From Candidatus Omnitrophota bacterium (lineage in GTDB: Bacteria; Omnitrophota; Gorgyraeia; Tantalellales; Tantalellaceae): a stretch of 64,000 bases of DNA. Position 1 is the first letter of the stretch. Every line of letters starts with the position of its first letter. This document shows positions 15,371-64,000 of this stretch, piece after piece. A program made the translations under genes and the position numbers. Under the pieces are notes generated by a model, which was not told the origin of the DNA, ran no database searches, and saw only the letters and a list, made by a program, of their open reading frames with translations. The stretch is taken from NCBI GenBank assembly GCA_014728045.1, contig WJMH01000006.1, positions 52,738-116,737 on the forward strand. The letters run 5' to 3'.

Positions 15371-18300
15371 TCAGGCTCGAGAGGCTATGTACCGGCGTAT
15401 CTGTTTATAGAGCGCCCTGTCACCGGGCAGTTTTACCGCACCGGGGATAAGCCTGATCACCGCCGTTGTGCGGTAAGAGCCGGCTTCCTCATCCCAGCAC
15501 ACGCTCCATATGGCTTCATCGTCCAGCTGCTGGCCGTTACTGATATTGCGGTAACAGCGTATGAGCTCATCCTTGTCGTATCTGAGAGCTCTTGCAACGG
15601 TGAACAGCATTATCTCGACAAGCGGATAGTAGTATTCCTGCGTGAGTTGACTGTCGTCGATACCTGTTATCGTGGAGATCCCCTCAAATCCCGAGAAATA
15701 CTCCTGGCGGTTCTTCTCGCTGGTTATGATAATGATGTTCTCTTTTTCCAGTTCGCCCCTCTCCACCAGCGACTCCAGGCTGCTGCTCAATACACCGGCA
15801 GGACCGTGGCGTATGATCACGTTGCTGAGGAATTCACTCAAAAGATCATCCCCAAGACCCATATGCCTGAGCGAGTCCATCATCTTCCGCAACTGGTCCC
15901 TGGCCGGTTCAGGGCCGATCTCCCGGTCAACGACGATAACTACCTTCCTGTCATGCCCGGCCGTAGAAAGAGCGTTGACCAGTTCCGGGACCGCGCGGGA
16001 TATCCTTTCCATAACATCGACCTGTTCGGCCTGTTCATACACAGGCCCCTGCGGGGCTATATATTCATATTCGTCTTCATCAAGCTGCCAGAGAGAGAAA
16101 GCTTCCTTATCCTCCTGGTAGATCTCGCCCAGACATGAGCCCGCCGGCAGGACAACGCTTCTCCATCCTTTATCACTGAACGGGAATTCGTAATGCTCCC
16201 ACAGATTGACGTCCCTTATGGATATGTTCATTCTCTGGTATCTTCTGTCGATGCGGTCCTTGCCGGAAGCATAAACCTGTTCTATCCCGAGACCCCTGGC
16301 AGTATTGACCATGGACCTCAGGGCGGTCTCTATCCATTTTCTGTATCTTTTGCGTAAAGCGCTGTTCAAGAGCAGTCTGTATCCGCGTGAAGCCTGTATC
16401 TCATCAAAAACCATGGCGGGCTTGCCATGGATCATCCTGAATTCAACTTTCACGATACCGAACGAGCCTTCCGGGGCTATGAACATCTGTGAAGCCGGCT
16501 TTTCCAGAACTTCCAAGGCGGGATTTTCTCCGAAATAGTCCTCTTCCGGGCGGATGACCAGTTCCTCGAAGCACTCGTCGTATTCGATAACCCCGCGTAC
16601 CCTGTGTCCGTGGTATGTCCAGGATATCTTACGCGCCTGGTGATATGTTTTCAAAAAGCGCTCTTTGATCTTTTCGATGTCCGTAACGGCTTTTTCCTCC
16701 GGCTCAGCCCTGTCGGCCTTCTCCCGGTCCTCTTTACCGGTTTTTCCTTCCAAGAGCCTGTTCAGCTGCATCGTCACGTAAGTACCATTCCCCGTACCCG
16801 AACGATAACTCACCTTGCCTTCAGGCACGCCCTCTTCATCCATACTGCCTGTAAAAAGAAGCTCCTTACCGAGAGACCGCATGAGAAGCCTCTCGCCGGC
16901 AGCGCCGTCGAGCACCATGGCCGTAAAGAATATGCCCCTACCGCTCCTCTTGGTGAGACCTTCGCTCTTGACGAGTTTTATGTTATGCATGAGCCTGGCC
17001 AGATCACAACCTGAACCGTTATCTTTCGCAAAAATATCTATTTGTATCTTACTTCCCGCGCGGCGCGCCCGGCAGGCCACCACTCCGAATACATCATCCT
17101 CGTATTCGGCGATCTCTTCCTTGGAATGATTGACAATATTGTACATTAGCTCCCCCAGGACCAGACCCGCATCATAGGCATCCTTCTCTGAGAGCCCCAT
17201 ATTCTTCAACCATTCCATGGTATTTTTCCTGAAATCGGCCATCTCCTCCGCCTGGCTGTTCAGGTGTTCAGCATCCTTGATGCTCTGCCCGTTGAGGGTT
17301 ATCGCCTTTATCTCACCTCGTTCGTTCGCCTTCTCAACGGCCTGACGGGTGCTTCTGAGATCCTCAGAATCCACTGCACTTTTGATGTCGACAAAACCTT
17401 GCTCCCGGGCATCCTCTTCATCCTCGGAGAGTCGCTCTATCCCTGCCGGGCGGCGGTACACGGTTATATGTGTCTTGTCGAACCTGGTATCAACGACCCT
17501 TTCGAGCCTGCTGAAACAAACTCCCGGCAGAGGATTATTCATCACGAAGACCGCCCCCGGCTTAAGCTCCCGTAGAAGTTTTTCTTCAAGCTTCTGCCTT
17601 ATGCGTTCCTCGAATTTCCTTTTGTAGAGAGGCCAGAAAATATATATAAGATCATGGGAGGAAAAGTCTTCCCTGAAAAAGTTACCTTTCGCCACTTCGG
17701 CGTTCGTCATGTCCATGTTTGCCGAAAGTGTCTTAAGACACTCCACAGCCTGTTCGTGAAGCCTTGCGTCCTGTTCTATGCCCTTTGCCCGACCGGCATA
17801 TCTGGAGAACACGGCCACTCCCTTGGCGCTGCCACTTCCCAGATCAAGAGCGGTTTTTTCACTGTCGAGGAATGTCCGCGCGATAAGAGCAAGATCGGCC
17901 GTTCTGGATGAAATGAAGATGGCGCCGTTGGCCGTTGCTTTTGAAGTAATGATGGTCTTATTCTTCTCGCCGGTGCGGTAATAATTGTCTATGAGCGCCA
18001 CCTCTTCGTCTGCTGTAATATTGCCCCCGGGGCCATCCAGGACATCCTTGAGGGTCACTCTGTAGGGATCGGCCCCCAGAACGTAACAGATGCCATTCAC
18101 CATGAAAGCGGGAACGATCGATCTGGTGAAGATCCTTTGACATATCCCGTCCAGCCCGGGATACCTTTCGGCAAATCCCCGCACCCTGCTTCTTATCCAC
18201 AGTTGCCTGAGGACCTCGTGCAGGACCATAGTGGTCACTACAGCGGTCAGCACGATACCCACCACGCCTGCCCCCGTGATATAAGGAGCTGGTAAAGCGA

Positions 18301-64000: not shown

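What the first reader, a model, noticed from the sequence alone, without database searches (positions are those of the whole stretch)
15371..64000. Two unrelated giant genes on the same strand bracket a 19-kb housekeeping island; this may mark an Omnitrophota-like genome
Giant ORFs above 14 kb are rare, yet two occur within 49 kb here. Both are co-directional with the intervening recA, his/trp, smc and fab genes. They share no obvious paralogy, being different domain sets.

Each is followed by small co-directional genes: cinA-C and thpR after ORF 1, and a 160-aa secreted protein after ORF 2. This suggests dedicated accessory partners.
Basis: inference. Interest (0 to 1): 0.7.

Follow-up and report, generated by a model that had tools for sequence, protein, structure and literature searches.

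The report
Two expandable giant genes in Omnitrophota
Two unrelated genes for multi-enzyme membrane proteins of about 5,000 residues lie 19 kb apart in a genome of the candidate phylum Omnitrophota, where very long genes are already known to be common; one belongs to an unnamed family whose two end-domains stay fixed while the middle ranges from a 23-residue linker (887-residue protein) to over 4,000 residues (5,012-residue protein) at the same chromosomal spot in related genomes.

Summary
Both giant ORFs are real. Giant 1 is 15371-30331 (-), 4986 aa. Giant 2 is 49526 to beyond 64000 (-), cut by the window; the full protein is 5012 aa. The source is an NCBI MAG labelled Candidatus Omnitrophica, so the taxonomic guess holds. 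No paralogy between them was detectable.

recA, his and trp lie downstream of giant 1, not between the giants, and three genes in the 19.2-kb interval are on the + strand. cinA-thpR form a cinA-ligT-recA type cluster, not giant-specific partners.

Orthologs keep both genes unsplit (dN/dS 0.13-0.20), but length is not conserved.

Giant 2 belongs to an unnamed family with a ~600-aa N-terminal cap and a ~240-aa C-terminal cap. 33 cluster representatives carry both caps, at 887 to 7165 aa. The same locus holds 887, 1548+2305, 2585, 2841 or 5012 aa in different genomes.

Giant 1 carries an extracytoplasmic GH5-like loop plus GHKL ATPase and methyltransferase modules.

Long mosaic membrane proteins are a documented Omnitrophota trait, and these two fall below published "giant" thresholds. 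They are new members of a known kind. The size series at one locus is the useful extra.

The parts
15371..30331 (-). Giant 1 CDS, 4986 aa (NCBI GF409_01335 / MBD3425855.1)
   Evidence: ORF list and translation. 100% match to P0001. Collinear with unsplit orthologs of 4716, 4718 and 5404 aa; the more distant 4597-aa P0004 matches only in parts.
30239..30331 (-). Giant 1 N-terminal leader (aa 1-31, ...CFISFDFAWA/YPQG), signal-peptide-like
   Evidence: Translation and hydrophobicity scan. A leader profile built from the giant 2 family ranks giant 1 family N-termini top 3 of 241 sequences, but with marginal E 0.007-0.25.
29636..29815 (-). P-loop NTPase-like segment (aa 173-232, Walker A GDPGTGKTS)
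   Evidence: Weak Pfam hits below cut-off: nSTAND_NTPase5 E 2e-4, AAA_11, Zeta_toxin. Walker A motif read from the sequence.
24782..26719 (-). Probable extracytoplasmic loop (aa 1205-1850): internal signal-like segment, GH5 mannanase-like domain (25232-26080), Ig/FN3-like domain (24956-25192), stop-transfer helix followed by RKKRK
   Evidence: PDB beta-mannanases E 9e-10 with the NEP acid/base Glu aligned. Pfam Cellulase and Ig_RIMBP2 hits are weak. Flanking hydrophobic segments at 1210-1228 and 1830-1848. Best conserved part of the protein, 73-78% identity. Topology is inferred.
23840..24199 (-). GHKL ATPase domain 1 (HATPase_c, aa 2045-2164), inside a block (aa ~1951-2170) that orthologs P0002 and P0003 lack
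   Evidence: Pfam E 2.4e-10, above cut-off. Indel mapped. No HisKA/DHp domain found.
20669..21247 (-). SAM-methyltransferase-like module, copy 1 (aa 3029-3221)
   Evidence: Internal repeat with copy 2, E 3e-16. Copy 2 gives the weak PCMT/RsmD hits.
17438..18019 (-). SAM-methyltransferase-like module, copy 2 (aa 4105-4298; PCMT/RsmD-like)
   Evidence: Pfam PCMT E 5e-4, at cut-off. NCBIfam RsmD, weak. PDB 2fpo E 0.015.
16907..17257 (-). GHKL ATPase domain 2 (HATPase_c_2, anti-sigma-factor-kinase type, aa 4359-4475)
   Evidence: Pfam E 4e-14 for the whole protein and 1.5e-9 for the tile, above cut-off.
15374..16033 (-). Giant-1-type C-terminal domain (aa 4767-4986)
   Evidence: 44-67% conserved in all orthologs. 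Also ends the unrelated 3240-aa protein P0066, E 3e-23. The AF2 model is unusable, pLDDT 41.8.
30403..30431 (-). Promoter-like site upstream of giant 1 (TTGACA-17-TATATT with TG)
   Evidence: 11 of 12 consensus matches; sequence shown. A consensus match only.
49526..64000 (-). Giant 2 CDS, residues 189-5012 of a 5012-aa protein (MBD3425871.1, named 'protein kinase' by NCBI); N-terminus lies beyond the window
   Evidence: Open to the window edge. P0019 is identical from residue 189.
62702..64000 (-). N-cap domain, window part (full-length aa 189-621 of ~19-621)
   Evidence: 57% identical to the N-terminus of the 887-aa P0043. Shared by 51-52 of 148 retrieved proteins. No Pfam, NCBIfam or PDB match even with a profile.
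60479..61327 (-). Hanks-type Ser/Thr kinase 1 (window aa 892-1174)
   Evidence: Pfam Pkinase E 4e-82 over two stretches; PDB kinases. The VAIK-like, HxDxKxxN and DFG motifs are read from the sequence.
53126..59779 (-). Middle block of ~2,200 aa (window aa 1408-3625), absent from the 2585/2841-aa orthologs
   Evidence: Contents: HExxH motifs, a transglutaminase-like segment (56426-56704), a CPBP-like motif, an ABC1-like kinase-like segment (54410-54673) and Hanks kinase 2 (53234-54064). tblastn maps. Pfam hits are weak except kinase 2. Kinase 2 is about 40% identical to kinase 1. The M50B-like segment (59876-60133) lies just upstream of this block. HExxH and CPBP motifs were read by eye.
50246..53068 (-). 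Recurrent blocks A, B and C (window aa 3645-4585); B and C are atypical kinase-like (ABC1- and WaaY-like)
   Evidence: Each block recurs separately in dozens of long proteins. Weak Pfam ABC1 and WaaY hits. A family profile hits human STK33 kinase at E 5e-4.
49529..50248 (-). C-cap domain (block D, window aa 4585-4824, ends ...YEQIRDWKAAQDEILRSL)
   Evidence: A 33-sequence HMM hits it at E 1e-92. It lies at the very C-terminus of 54 of 148 retrieved proteins. No Pfam or PDB match.
48932..49414 (-). 160-aa protein with signal-peptide-like N-terminus (GF409_01410), invariant C-terminal GFYGSWWS
   Evidence: Only four homolog clusters; alignment. It follows giant 2 orthologs in L003 and L009-L012 and is absent in L014. 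AF2 pLDDT 52.
48387..48935 (+). 182-aa membrane protein on the opposite strand, conserved at this position
   Evidence: ORF. Homologs in the same place in L003, L009, L014 and L016, 42-63% identity.
30522..48432 (.). The intervening block
   Evidence: Genes: GGDEF/GAF (+), smc, merR (35409-35615), etfA-Fer4, etfB, acyl-CoA dehydrogenase, fabF, acpP (40367-40645), fabG, unknown 883 aa, unknown 543 aa, GH1 (+), aldo-keto reductase. Pfam; small ORFs. Strong terminator-like hairpin after smc at 31749-31775. The 883-aa gene is absent in L009 and L012.
12523..15329 (-). cinA-C, thpR/LigT, recA, recX: a recA-type cluster immediately downstream of giant 1
   Evidence: Pfam. Same order in all relatives. 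Promoter-like sites at 15336-15365 and 14138-14165. cinA-ligT-recA cluster described in Deinococcus.

Best explanation
These are two unrelated, native, vertically inherited genes of an Omnitrophota genome. Each encodes a non-repetitive mosaic protein of about 5,000 aa with a Sec-type leader and several membrane-spanning segments, stringing together enzyme and signalling modules.

SHOWN
- Both ORFs are real coding sequence.
- Relatives keep them as single ORFs in the same syntenic block.
- They differ from their orthologs by whole-module insertions or deletions.
- Giant 2 belongs to an unnamed family defined by a ~600-aa N-terminal cap and a ~240-aa C-terminal cap. Almost all the length variation (887 to 7165 aa) lies between the caps.
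- The chromosomal position occupied here by the 5012-aa gene holds a caps-only 887-aa gene, or genes of 1548+2305, 2585 or 2841 aa, in other genomes.
- Giant 2's cargo is two Hanks kinases that look catalytically intact, three atypical kinase-like blocks, and several weak peptidase-like segments.
- Giant 1 combines a GH5 mannanase-like plus Ig-like loop with two GHKL ATPase modules, two PCMT-like methyltransferase modules and a P-loop segment.

INFERRED
- The GH5/Ig loop of giant 1 is exposed outside the cytoplasmic membrane. It sits between a start-transfer-like and a stop-transfer-like helix.
- The ATP- and SAM-using modules face the cytoplasm.
- Each protein therefore acts as an envelope-anchored hub. 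It couples an exposed hydrolase-like or binding domain to protein phosphorylation or methylation inside the cell.
- Giant 2 grew by stepwise insertion and duplication of modules between its caps. The direction of change is not established.

The housekeeping genes between the giants are not part of a system with them. The arrangement is conserved lineage synteny. cinA and thpR belong with recA.
For: NATIVE CODING SEQUENCE
- Stop-free for ~5000 codons.
- Codon-position GC matches smc, alaS and recA along the whole length.
- No nucleotide tandem repeats.
- dN/dS between ortholog pairs is 0.20 (0.07-0.26 per 300 codons) for giant 1 and 0.13 for giant 2.

SYNTENY AND UNSPLIT ORTHOLOGS.

MODULE INDELS.

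CAPPED FAMILY
- 230 representatives at E <= 1e-3.
- 52 have the N-cap at their start, 54 have the C-cap at their end, and 33 have both, at 887-7165 aa.
- P0043 consists of N-cap (57% identity), a 23-aa linker and C-cap (40% identity).
- Same locus in L014, L016, L009 and L012.

DOMAINS.

HYDROPHOBIC SEGMENTS.

MATCH TO PUBLISHED OMNITROPHOTA LONG PROTEINS: methyltransferase plus HATPase module, and signal peptide plus TM topology.
Against: - No expression, topology or activity data exist.
- TM segments come from a crude hydropathy scan. A simple in/out count places the P-loop segment and the second methyltransferase/GHKL pair on the wrong side.
- Short capped proteins have only the leader and no other hydrophobic segment. 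In them the kinase-like block sits on the same side as the N-cap. If the leader is a cleaved signal peptide, that side is outside the cell, which conflicts with a cytoplasmic signalling role.
- Most of both proteins has no recognisable domain.
- Many domain calls (M50B, transglutaminase, ABC1, WaaY, P-loop, PCMT) are below curated cut-offs.
- Both structure predictions failed (pLDDT 42 and 52).
- Growth versus shrinkage at the giant 2 locus was not polarised by a phylogeny.
- Taxonomy rests on submitter labels.
Confidence: 0.6

Rival explanations
1. Prey- or host-attack surface proteins (the Archaeovorin idea). The giants are exported coat or adhesion proteins that bind and digest the envelope of a target cell. 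The GH5 domain and neighbouring glycosidases do the work.
For: - The GH5 mannanase-like plus Ig-like loop is the most conserved part of giant 1.
- Both giants carry signal-like leaders.
- GH1 and a weak glycosylhydrolase-like 543-aa secreted protein lie beside giant 2.
- The literature links Omnitrophota giants to polysaccharide degradation and CAZyme flanks.
Against: - No SecA_DEAD, dockerin, lectin or adhesin domains, and no repeats.
- No type II secretion or pilus genes in the window.
- Most recognisable modules use ATP or SAM (kinases, GHKL ATPases, methyltransferases), which points to the cytoplasm.
- The genome encodes his, trp and fab pathways, which hints at a less host-dependent organism.
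Confidence: 0.2
2. MARTX-like multi-effector polyprotein. The conserved N- and C-caps of the giant 2 family act as export or translocation handles. The variable middle is a string of effector enzymes released by the protein's own peptidase-like modules.
For: - Fixed caps with freely variable cargo of kinases, acetyltransferase, phosphoesterase, HD and PRTase domains.
- Peptidase-like segments in giant 2.
- Short members have no TM segment beyond the leader, as expected for exported proteins.
- Capped genes occur in tandem.
- A tripartite OEP/HlyD/AcrB system lies just upstream in L005 and L016.
Against: - No RTX or glycine-rich repeats and no cysteine protease domain of the MARTX type.
- The peptidase-like hits are all below cut-off.
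- Long members have many hydrophobic segments, which argues for membrane retention.
- RND pumps are not known protein exporters (my own knowledge).
- The comparison with MARTX is from memory and was not tested.
Confidence: 0.12
3. The two giants and the 19-kb block between them form one functional unit, with the small downstream genes as dedicated accessory partners.
For: - The order giant 2 ... fab/etf/smc ... giant 1 ... cinA is conserved across relatives down to about 35% giant identity.
- The 160-aa gene always follows the longer giant 2 orthologs.
- A third capped giant sits inside the same block in L013.
Against: - The block genes are housekeeping genes with their own promoter-like and terminator-like signals, and three are on the other strand.
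- cinA-ligT-recA exists without giants in Deinococcus.
- Block content varies independently of the giants: the 883-aa gene is present or absent, and the capped gene sits at another position in L013.
- The caps-only locus lacks the 160-aa gene.
Confidence: 0.05
4. Artefact: misassembly, pseudogene or a wrong genetic code creates falsely long ORFs.
For: The source is a metagenome-assembled genome. Exact look-ups of three window proteins in the gene-position index failed.
Against: - Independent assemblies from NCBI, ENA, JGI and Logan carry collinear orthologs with open frames.
- Purifying selection along the whole length.
- Uniform native codon composition.
- Both proteins are in NCBI as intact products.
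Confidence: 0.02

Closest known systems
Very long multi-enzyme membrane proteins of Omnitrophota (Nielsen & Lui 2026, class 1 'multi-enzyme', Pfam Module 1 methyltransferase + HATPase; bioRxiv 10.64898/2026.06.07.730766)
   Same: - Same phylum label.
- Non-repetitive tiling of different enzyme domains.
- Methyltransferase plus HATPase co-occurrence in giant 1 and kinase/phosphotransferase content in giant 2.
- Signal peptide plus scattered TM helices.
- Sequence-unique proteins with conserved architecture.
   Different: - That catalogue starts at 10,000 aa; these are 4986 and 5012 aa.
- In the text I searched, no cap-defined family, Hanks-kinase cargo or same-locus size series is described.
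- Flanks here lack the secretion, pilus and transposase genes reported there.
Archaeovorins and Dockerin-type giant proteins (West-Roberts et al. 2023, bioRxiv 10.1101/2023.11.21.568195) and the 39,678-aa protein of Velamenicoccus archaeovorus
   Same: - Omnitrophota.
- Many TM regions.
- Glycosyl hydrolase plus methyltransferase plus peptidase-like content.
- N-terminal region without known domains.
   Different: - Six to seventeen times shorter.
- No SecA_DEAD, C39/S8 peptidase, NUDIX, glycosyltransferase, dockerin or TSP3 domains found.
- No type II secretion neighbourhood.
MARTX toxins (conserved terminal regions flanking a variable set of effector domains; from my own knowledge, not tested here)
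   Same: Fixed N- and C-terminal regions with an exchangeable multi-enzyme middle. Sizes of 3,000-5,000+ aa. Possible internal peptidase modules.
   Different: No RTX repeats, no CPD domain, no type I secretion genes. The capped proteins carry a Sec-type leader and, when long, many hydrophobic segments.
Membrane-anchored Hanks-type Ser/Thr kinases such as PknB/PknA/StkP
   Same: Both giant 2 kinase domains match these at E ~1e-19 to 1e-20 and keep the catalytic motifs.
   Different: No PASTA domains. The kinase domains are two of many modules in a 5012-aa chain and are not N-terminal.
cinA-ligT-recA gene cluster of Deinococcus (PMC6300522)
   Same: Same gene order cinA, ligT/thpR, recA directly downstream of giant 1.
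   Different: Here only the CinA C-terminal domain is encoded, recX and alaS follow, and co-transcription is untested.

Membership tests
Giant ORFs of Omnitrophota sensu Seymour et al. 2023 | ORF longer than 20 kb | tested here: not met
   14,961 nt and about 15,039 nt. Threshold quoted.
Large / giant proteins sensu West-Roberts et al. 2023 | At least 10,000 aa (large) or at least 30,000 aa (giant) | tested here: not met
   4986 and 5012 aa. Definitions.
Huge proteins sensu Amaral & Devos 2024 | More than 5000 aa | tested here: inconclusive
   Giant 2 (5012 aa) passes. Giant 1 (4986 aa) just fails.
Archaeovorin-type giant protein | Divergent SecA DEAD helicase / preprotein-binding domain | tested here: not met
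   No such Pfam hit in whole-protein or tiled scans. Divergent copies could escape HMMs.
Archaeovorin-type giant protein | Glycosyl hydrolase, methyltransferase and peptidase content with numerous TM regions | tested here: met
   Giant 1 has GH5-like and methyltransferase-like modules. Giant 2 has peptidase-like segments. 8 and 9 hydrophobic segments respectively.
Archaeovorin-type giant protein | Proximity to type II secretion / pilus genes | tested here: not met
   None among the annotated window genes.
Dockerin-type giant protein | Dockerin and TSP3 repeats | tested here: not met
   No hits and no tandem repeats.
Omnitrophota multi-enzyme long proteins, Pfam Module 1 (Nielsen & Lui 2026) | Methyltransferase and HATPase_c domains in one non-repetitive polypeptide with signal peptide and/or TM helices | tested here: met
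   Giant 1: HATPase_c, HATPase_c_2, PCMT-like modules, leader and hydrophobic segments. Its length is below that catalogue's 10-kaa floor.
Capped family defined here (giant 2 type) | N-cap domain directly after the leader | tested here: met
   P0019 residues 19-621 are 57% identical to P0043 residues 16-626. Giant 1 has no such match.
Capped family defined here (giant 2 type) | C-cap domain at the extreme C-terminus | tested here: met
   The HMM hits giant 2 residues 4580-4824 at E 1e-92. Giant 1 and the 883-aa protein are not hit.
Hanks-type Ser/Thr protein kinase | Pkinase fold with the VAIK Lys, HRD-type catalytic loop and DFG motif | tested here: met
   Pfam E 4e-82. Motifs IAIK / HADLKPEN / DFG and VAVK / HCDIKPNN / DFG read. 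Activity not testable here.
Glycoside hydrolase family 5 | Acid/base Glu in the NEP motif | tested here: met
   WDIINEP aligns to WDLMNEP of mannanase 3vup.
Glycoside hydrolase family 5 | Nucleophile Glu on strand 7 | tested here: inconclusive
   The PDB alignment stops before it. A candidate FFFGELEP motif was seen by eye only.
Two-component sensor histidine kinase | HisKA/DHp phospho-acceptor domain next to HATPase_c | tested here: not met
   Only HATPase_c domains were found.
cinA-ligT-recA cluster | Gene order cinA, ligT/thpR, recA on one strand | tested here: met
   Co-transcription is not testable with these tools.
MARTX toxin | Glycine-rich RTX repeats at both ends and a CPD autoprocessing domain | tested here: not met
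   No repeat arrays and no RTX or CPD Pfam hits.

The most novel reading that the evidence does not exclude
The N-cap and C-cap of the giant 2 family are a dedicated pair of handles, for export, membrane assembly or self-processing. They tolerate almost any cargo inserted between them. On this reading the family is a natural expandable cassette, and the 887 / 2585 / 2841 / 5012-aa series at one locus records how Omnitrophota long genes grow by module insertion. The protein P0066 joins a giant-1-type C-terminal domain to giant-2-type internal blocks. That would mean the different giants draw on one shared, recombining module pool.
Probability: 0.25. Interest if true: 0.7.

Novelty: new member of a known kind. 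Interest (0 to 1): 0.4.

Why it matters
How bacterial giant genes arise and what they do are open questions, and most published examples are sequence-unique with no informative relatives.

- **A graded series.** This locus offers a caps-only 887-aa gene and versions of 2.6, 2.8 and 5.0 kaa in the same genomic position, plus 33 cluster representatives carrying both caps at up to 7.2 kaa. Insertion order, selection on cargo and the role of the caps become testable.
- **New search handles.** The two cap domains are absent from Pfam, NCBIfam and the PDB. Profiles of them would allow long and short members to be found systematically.
- **A caution.** Giant size is not a stable trait of a locus, so using it as a taxonomic or lifestyle marker needs care.

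Tried and rejected
1. **Shared C-terminal module in giant 1, giant 2 and the 883-aa protein.** The tails look alike by eye. Rejected:
   - hhalign on the last 260 aa gave E 0.15-0.4.
   - A 33-sequence C-cap HMM hits only giant 2.
   - Profile-profile with deeper alignments gave E 0.1, against 0.28 for a reversed-sequence control.
2. **Hidden paralogy of the whole giants.** BLASTP best E 2.1; family profiles E 0.78.
3. **The 883-, 543- or 160-aa neighbours as detached pieces of the giants.** No signal.
4. **Giant 2 as a fusion of tandem capped genes.** No internal cap remnant.
5. **Structure prediction.** The giant 1 C-terminal 507 aa gave pLDDT 41.8 and the 160-aa protein gave 52.1. Both alignments had only four sequences. 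I ran no fold searches because matches to such models are meaningless.
6. **Naming the caps and dark neighbours.** Nothing from Pfam, NCBIfam or PDB profiles ([failed on bad coordinates], 61, 87, 88, 94, 95, 112). My guess that the N-cap (HxQDAHxN ... GGFH) resembles Tiki/TraB/ChaN-type hydrolases is from memory and untested.
7. **Exact look-ups of window proteins in the gene-position index.** They failed.
8. **Whole giant 2 homology search.** It timed out.
9. **RNA and repeat checks.** No Rfam hits, no tRNAs, one trivial tandem repeat.
10. **Genome-wide census of ORFs over 10 kb in the source assembly.** Not possible, because the MAG is not in the searchable genome collection.

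
Full report
OBSERVATION

The window contains two very long minus-strand ORFs. ORF 1 runs 15371-30331, starts with ATG and encodes 4986 aa. ORF 2 ends at 49526 and has no stop codon up to base 64000, so the window cuts it.

An exhaustive HMMER search later returned P0019, a 5012-aa protein identical to the window ORF from residue 189 on. NCBI names it 'MAG: protein kinase [Candidatus Omnitrophica bacterium]', MBD3425871.1, and it lies on the same 128,274-bp contig as giant 1 (GF409_01335, MBD3425855.1). Five thousand stop-free codons cannot arise by chance; my arithmetic gives about 1e-104.

Codon-position GC content in both giants matches smc, alaS and recA and is uniform along their length. 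There are no nucleotide tandem repeats, Rfam hits or tRNAs in the window.

Pfam annotation and small-ORF inspection give the following order, with increasing coordinates:

- trpF, trpC, trpD, trpG, trpE, hisI, hisF, hisA, hisH, hisB, hisD, alaS, recX, recA, thpR, cinA-C (all minus strand, 918-15329)
- giant 1
- GGDEF/GAF (+), smc, merR, etfA-Fer4, etfB, acyl-CoA dehydrogenase, fabF, acpP, fabG
- unknown 883 aa, unknown 543 aa, GH1 (+), aldo-keto reductase, a 182-aa membrane protein (+), a 160-aa protein with a signal-like N-terminus
- giant 2

The 19,194-bp interval therefore exists and is mostly housekeeping. But recA, his and trp are not in it, and three of its genes are on the other strand.

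Promoter-like sites precede giant 1, cinA, recA and the 160-aa gene. A strong terminator-like hairpin follows smc. These are consensus matches only.

TAXONOMY

The source and all named relatives are labelled Omnitrophota or Omnitrophica by their submitters. I ran no phylogeny. The source MAG is not in the GTDB-representative collection I could scan.

ARE THE GIANTS CONSERVED AS GIANTS?

Giant 1 has only three homolog clusters among 5.8 billion proteins: P0002 (5404 aa), P0003 (4716 aa; its cluster includes P0008, 4718 aa) and P0004 (4597 aa, 35% identity). All lie between the opposite-strand GGDEF gene with smc and cinA-thpR-recA.

The alignment with P0002 and P0003 is collinear over the whole length at 37-78% identity, with whole-module differences; P0004 matches only in parts:

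- Residues ~1951-2170 (HATPase_c plus one copy of a ~100-aa repeat) are present only here.
- P0002 has about 735 extra residues.
- P0004 lacks a recognisable counterpart of residues ~450-1800.

Between two close orthologs dN/dS is 0.20 overall and 0.07-0.26 in every 300-codon window. Residues ~3000-3900 are far more diverged than the rest, which suggests a recombined block.

GIANT 2 VARIES MUCH MORE

- P0005 (at least 3345 aa, cut by its contig start) is collinear with residues 1184-4824 of the window ORF.
- In a sister clade seen in five independent contigs, the ortholog is 2585 aa. In JGI sample 3300060480 it is 2841 aa.
- These shorter orthologs match window residues 1-436, 675-1407 and 3626-4824 at 60-70% identity. 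They lack a central block of about 2,200 aa containing the second Hanks kinase and most peptidase-like segments.
- dN/dS between the two short orthologs is 0.13.

No relative splits either giant into many genes, but giant 2's size is lineage-specific.

THE CAPPED FAMILY

An exhaustive search with giant 2's conserved C-terminal 1199 aa found 230 cluster representatives at E <= 1e-3. Hits fall into four separable blocks. The last block (window residues 4585-4824) lies at the extreme C-terminus of 54 of the 148 proteins examined.

Re-searching those 148 proteins with full-length giant 2 showed that 51-52 also carry its N-terminal ~600 aa at their own start. The middle of giant 2 is almost unique.

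Thirty-three representatives have both caps, with lengths running continuously from 887 to 7165 aa. P0043 (887 aa) is an N-cap (57% identical to giant 2), a 23-residue linker and a C-cap (40% identical).

Neither cap has a Pfam, NCBIfam or PDB relative, even with profiles. The N-cap has invariant HxQDAHxN, NxEG and GGFH motifs. The kinase-like block B weakly matches a human kinase.

ONE LOCUS, MANY SIZES

- P0043 lies directly upstream of a tm182-like gene (opposite strand), AKR (63% identity) and GH1 (opposite strand, 66%). This is the position giant 2 occupies here.
- In L016, an OEP/HlyD/AcrB efflux system is followed by two tandem capped genes (1548 and 2305 aa), a 675-aa methyltransferase-like protein, then tm182 and AKR.
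- L005 also has the HlyD/AcrB pair just upstream of a giant 2 ortholog start.
- L019 and L020 carry two capped giants in tandem.
- In the more distant L013, a 5235-aa capped protein sits between etfA and smc inside the same fab-etf-smc-GGDEF block.

There is no internal cap remnant in giant 2, so it is not a fusion of tandem genes.

DOMAIN CONTENT

Giant 1:

- A leader and a P-loop segment.
- Two copies of a hydrophobic module and three copies of a ~100-aa repeat.
- A GH5 beta-mannanase-like domain, with the NEP catalytic Glu aligned, followed by an Ig-like domain.
- HATPase_c and HATPase_c_2 domains.
- Two PCMT/RsmD-like methyltransferase modules.
- A C-terminal domain.

The GH5/Ig block is the best conserved part (73-78%). 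It sits between a signal-peptide-like internal segment and a hydrophobic helix followed by RKKRK. I infer that it is extracytoplasmic.

Giant 2:

- Two Hanks kinases with intact catalytic motifs, about 40% identical to each other.
- Three atypical kinase-like blocks.
- Weak M50B-like and transglutaminase-like hits.
- HExxH and CPBP-like motifs, read by eye.

About three quarters of each protein has no recognisable domain.

RELATION BETWEEN THE TWO GIANTS

No shared domain is detectable. However, P0066 (3240 aa) ends in a giant-1-type C-terminal domain (E 3e-23) and carries three copies of giant 2's block A (E 1e-18 to 3e-8). The two architectures therefore draw on an overlapping module pool.

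A leader profile from the giant 2 family ranks giant 1 family N-termini first among 241 sequences, but the E-values are marginal.

THE SMALL DOWNSTREAM GENES

cinA-thpR-recA-recX-alaS is a fixed cluster in all relatives. It mirrors the cinA-ligT-recA cluster of Deinococcus, so cinA and thpR belong with recA.

The 160-aa protein has four homolog clusters, all in this clade, and an invariant GFYGSWWS C-terminus. It follows every giant 2 ortholog of 2585 aa or more that I examined, but it is missing at the caps-only locus. A partnership is possible but cannot be told apart from synteny.

COMPARISON WITH THE LITERATURE

Long ORFs are a documented hallmark of Omnitrophota. Published thresholds:

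| Source | Threshold |
|---|---|
| Seymour et al. 2023 | ORFs over 20 kb |
| West-Roberts et al. 2023 | at least 10,000 aa ("large"), at least 30,000 aa ("giant") |
| Nielsen & Lui 2026 | 916 proteins of at least 10 kaa catalogued |

Nielsen & Lui report that 94% of those proteins carry TM helices or a signal peptide, and describe a methyltransferase plus HATPase module and a non-repetitive multi-enzyme class.

The two genes here fit that class in kind but lie below all those size thresholds. They lack the SecA_DEAD, dockerin and secretion-system features of Archaeovorin or Dockerin-type giants. In the text I could search, neither paper describes the capped family, its Hanks-kinase cargo or the same-locus size series.

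VERDICT

The Omnitrophota guess is right and the accessory-partner idea is largely wrong. The giants are new members of a known kind. The added value is the cap-defined, expandable family and its size series at a conserved locus.

The mechanism I propose is an envelope-anchored hub coupling an exposed domain to cytoplasmic kinases and methyltransferases. It is an inference with unresolved topology conflicts and no usable structural models.

Noticed in passing
L001 vs L002, giant 1 ortholog residues ~3000-3900 (corresponds to window ~18600-21300): Between two otherwise close giant 1 orthologs (dS 0.05-0.3), this stretch has dN 0.2-0.3 and saturated dS. It lies next to a 735-aa insertion in P0002. 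It looks like a recombined or hypervariable block inside the gene.
   Followed up: partly
P0066 (3240 aa): A chimera-like protein. It ends in a giant-1-type C-terminal domain (E 3e-23) and carries three copies of giant 2's block A (E 1e-18 to 3e-8). This is the only link found between the two giants.
   Followed up: partly
window 30239-30331 (giant 1 leader) and P0019 residues 1-45: Both giants and many capped-family members start with a similar leader: basic residues, a hydrophobic run, then D-x-A-W-A (for example FISFDFAWA and FILSDAWA). The ordinary signal peptides of the 160-, 543- and 883-aa neighbours lack it. The profile test is only marginal (E 0.007-0.25).
   Followed up: partly
window 48932-49414: The 160-aa protein and its three homolog clusters share an invariant aromatic C-terminus, GFYGSWWS. 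The family is restricted to this clade and has no known domain.
   Followed up: partly
window 48387-48935 (+): A 182-aa membrane protein made of two similar halves, on the opposite strand between the 160-aa gene and AKR. It is conserved at this position in L003, L009 and L016, and as a half-length 84-aa gene in L014.
   Followed up: partly
window 41636-44287: The unknown 883-aa protein with a signal-like N-terminus is present in L003 (878 aa, 55% identity, plus an extra 376-aa gene) but absent from L009 and L012, where the 513-aa gene abuts fabG. No domain was found in any library.
   Followed up: partly
L016 6008-17614; L020 2-20693; L019: Capped-family genes occur in tandem pairs: 1548 + 2305 aa in L016, and at least 3564 + at least 3244 aa in L020.
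   Followed up: partly
L005 1-4340; L016 1-5746: A tripartite efflux set (OEP in L016, HlyD-type adaptor, AcrB-type pump) lies immediately upstream of the capped gene on the same strand in two relatives. The window ends before this position, so its presence here is unknown. L009 and L012 have an unrelated 871/872-aa gene there.
   Followed up: partly
L013 6001-21708: In a more distant relative, a 5235-aa capped protein lies between etfA and smc, where this window has the 68-aa merR gene. Its domains are Pkinase, GNAT, DUF218 and Metallophos. The same conserved block hosts long genes at different insertion points.
   Followed up: partly
window 44353-45984: The unknown 543-aa secreted protein has a weak match to an NCBIfam 'F510_1955 family glycosylhydrolase' (E 6e-7, far below cut-off) and repeat-like YVYLATDRGLF motifs. 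Together with GH1 it gives giant 2 a carbohydrate-related flank.
   Followed up: no
window 49526-64000: The word-index homology search with giant 2 residues 1200-3300 did not return the source's own protein, although P0019 is in that collection. This is a tool sensitivity quirk and not a sign of a pseudogene.
   Followed up: yes
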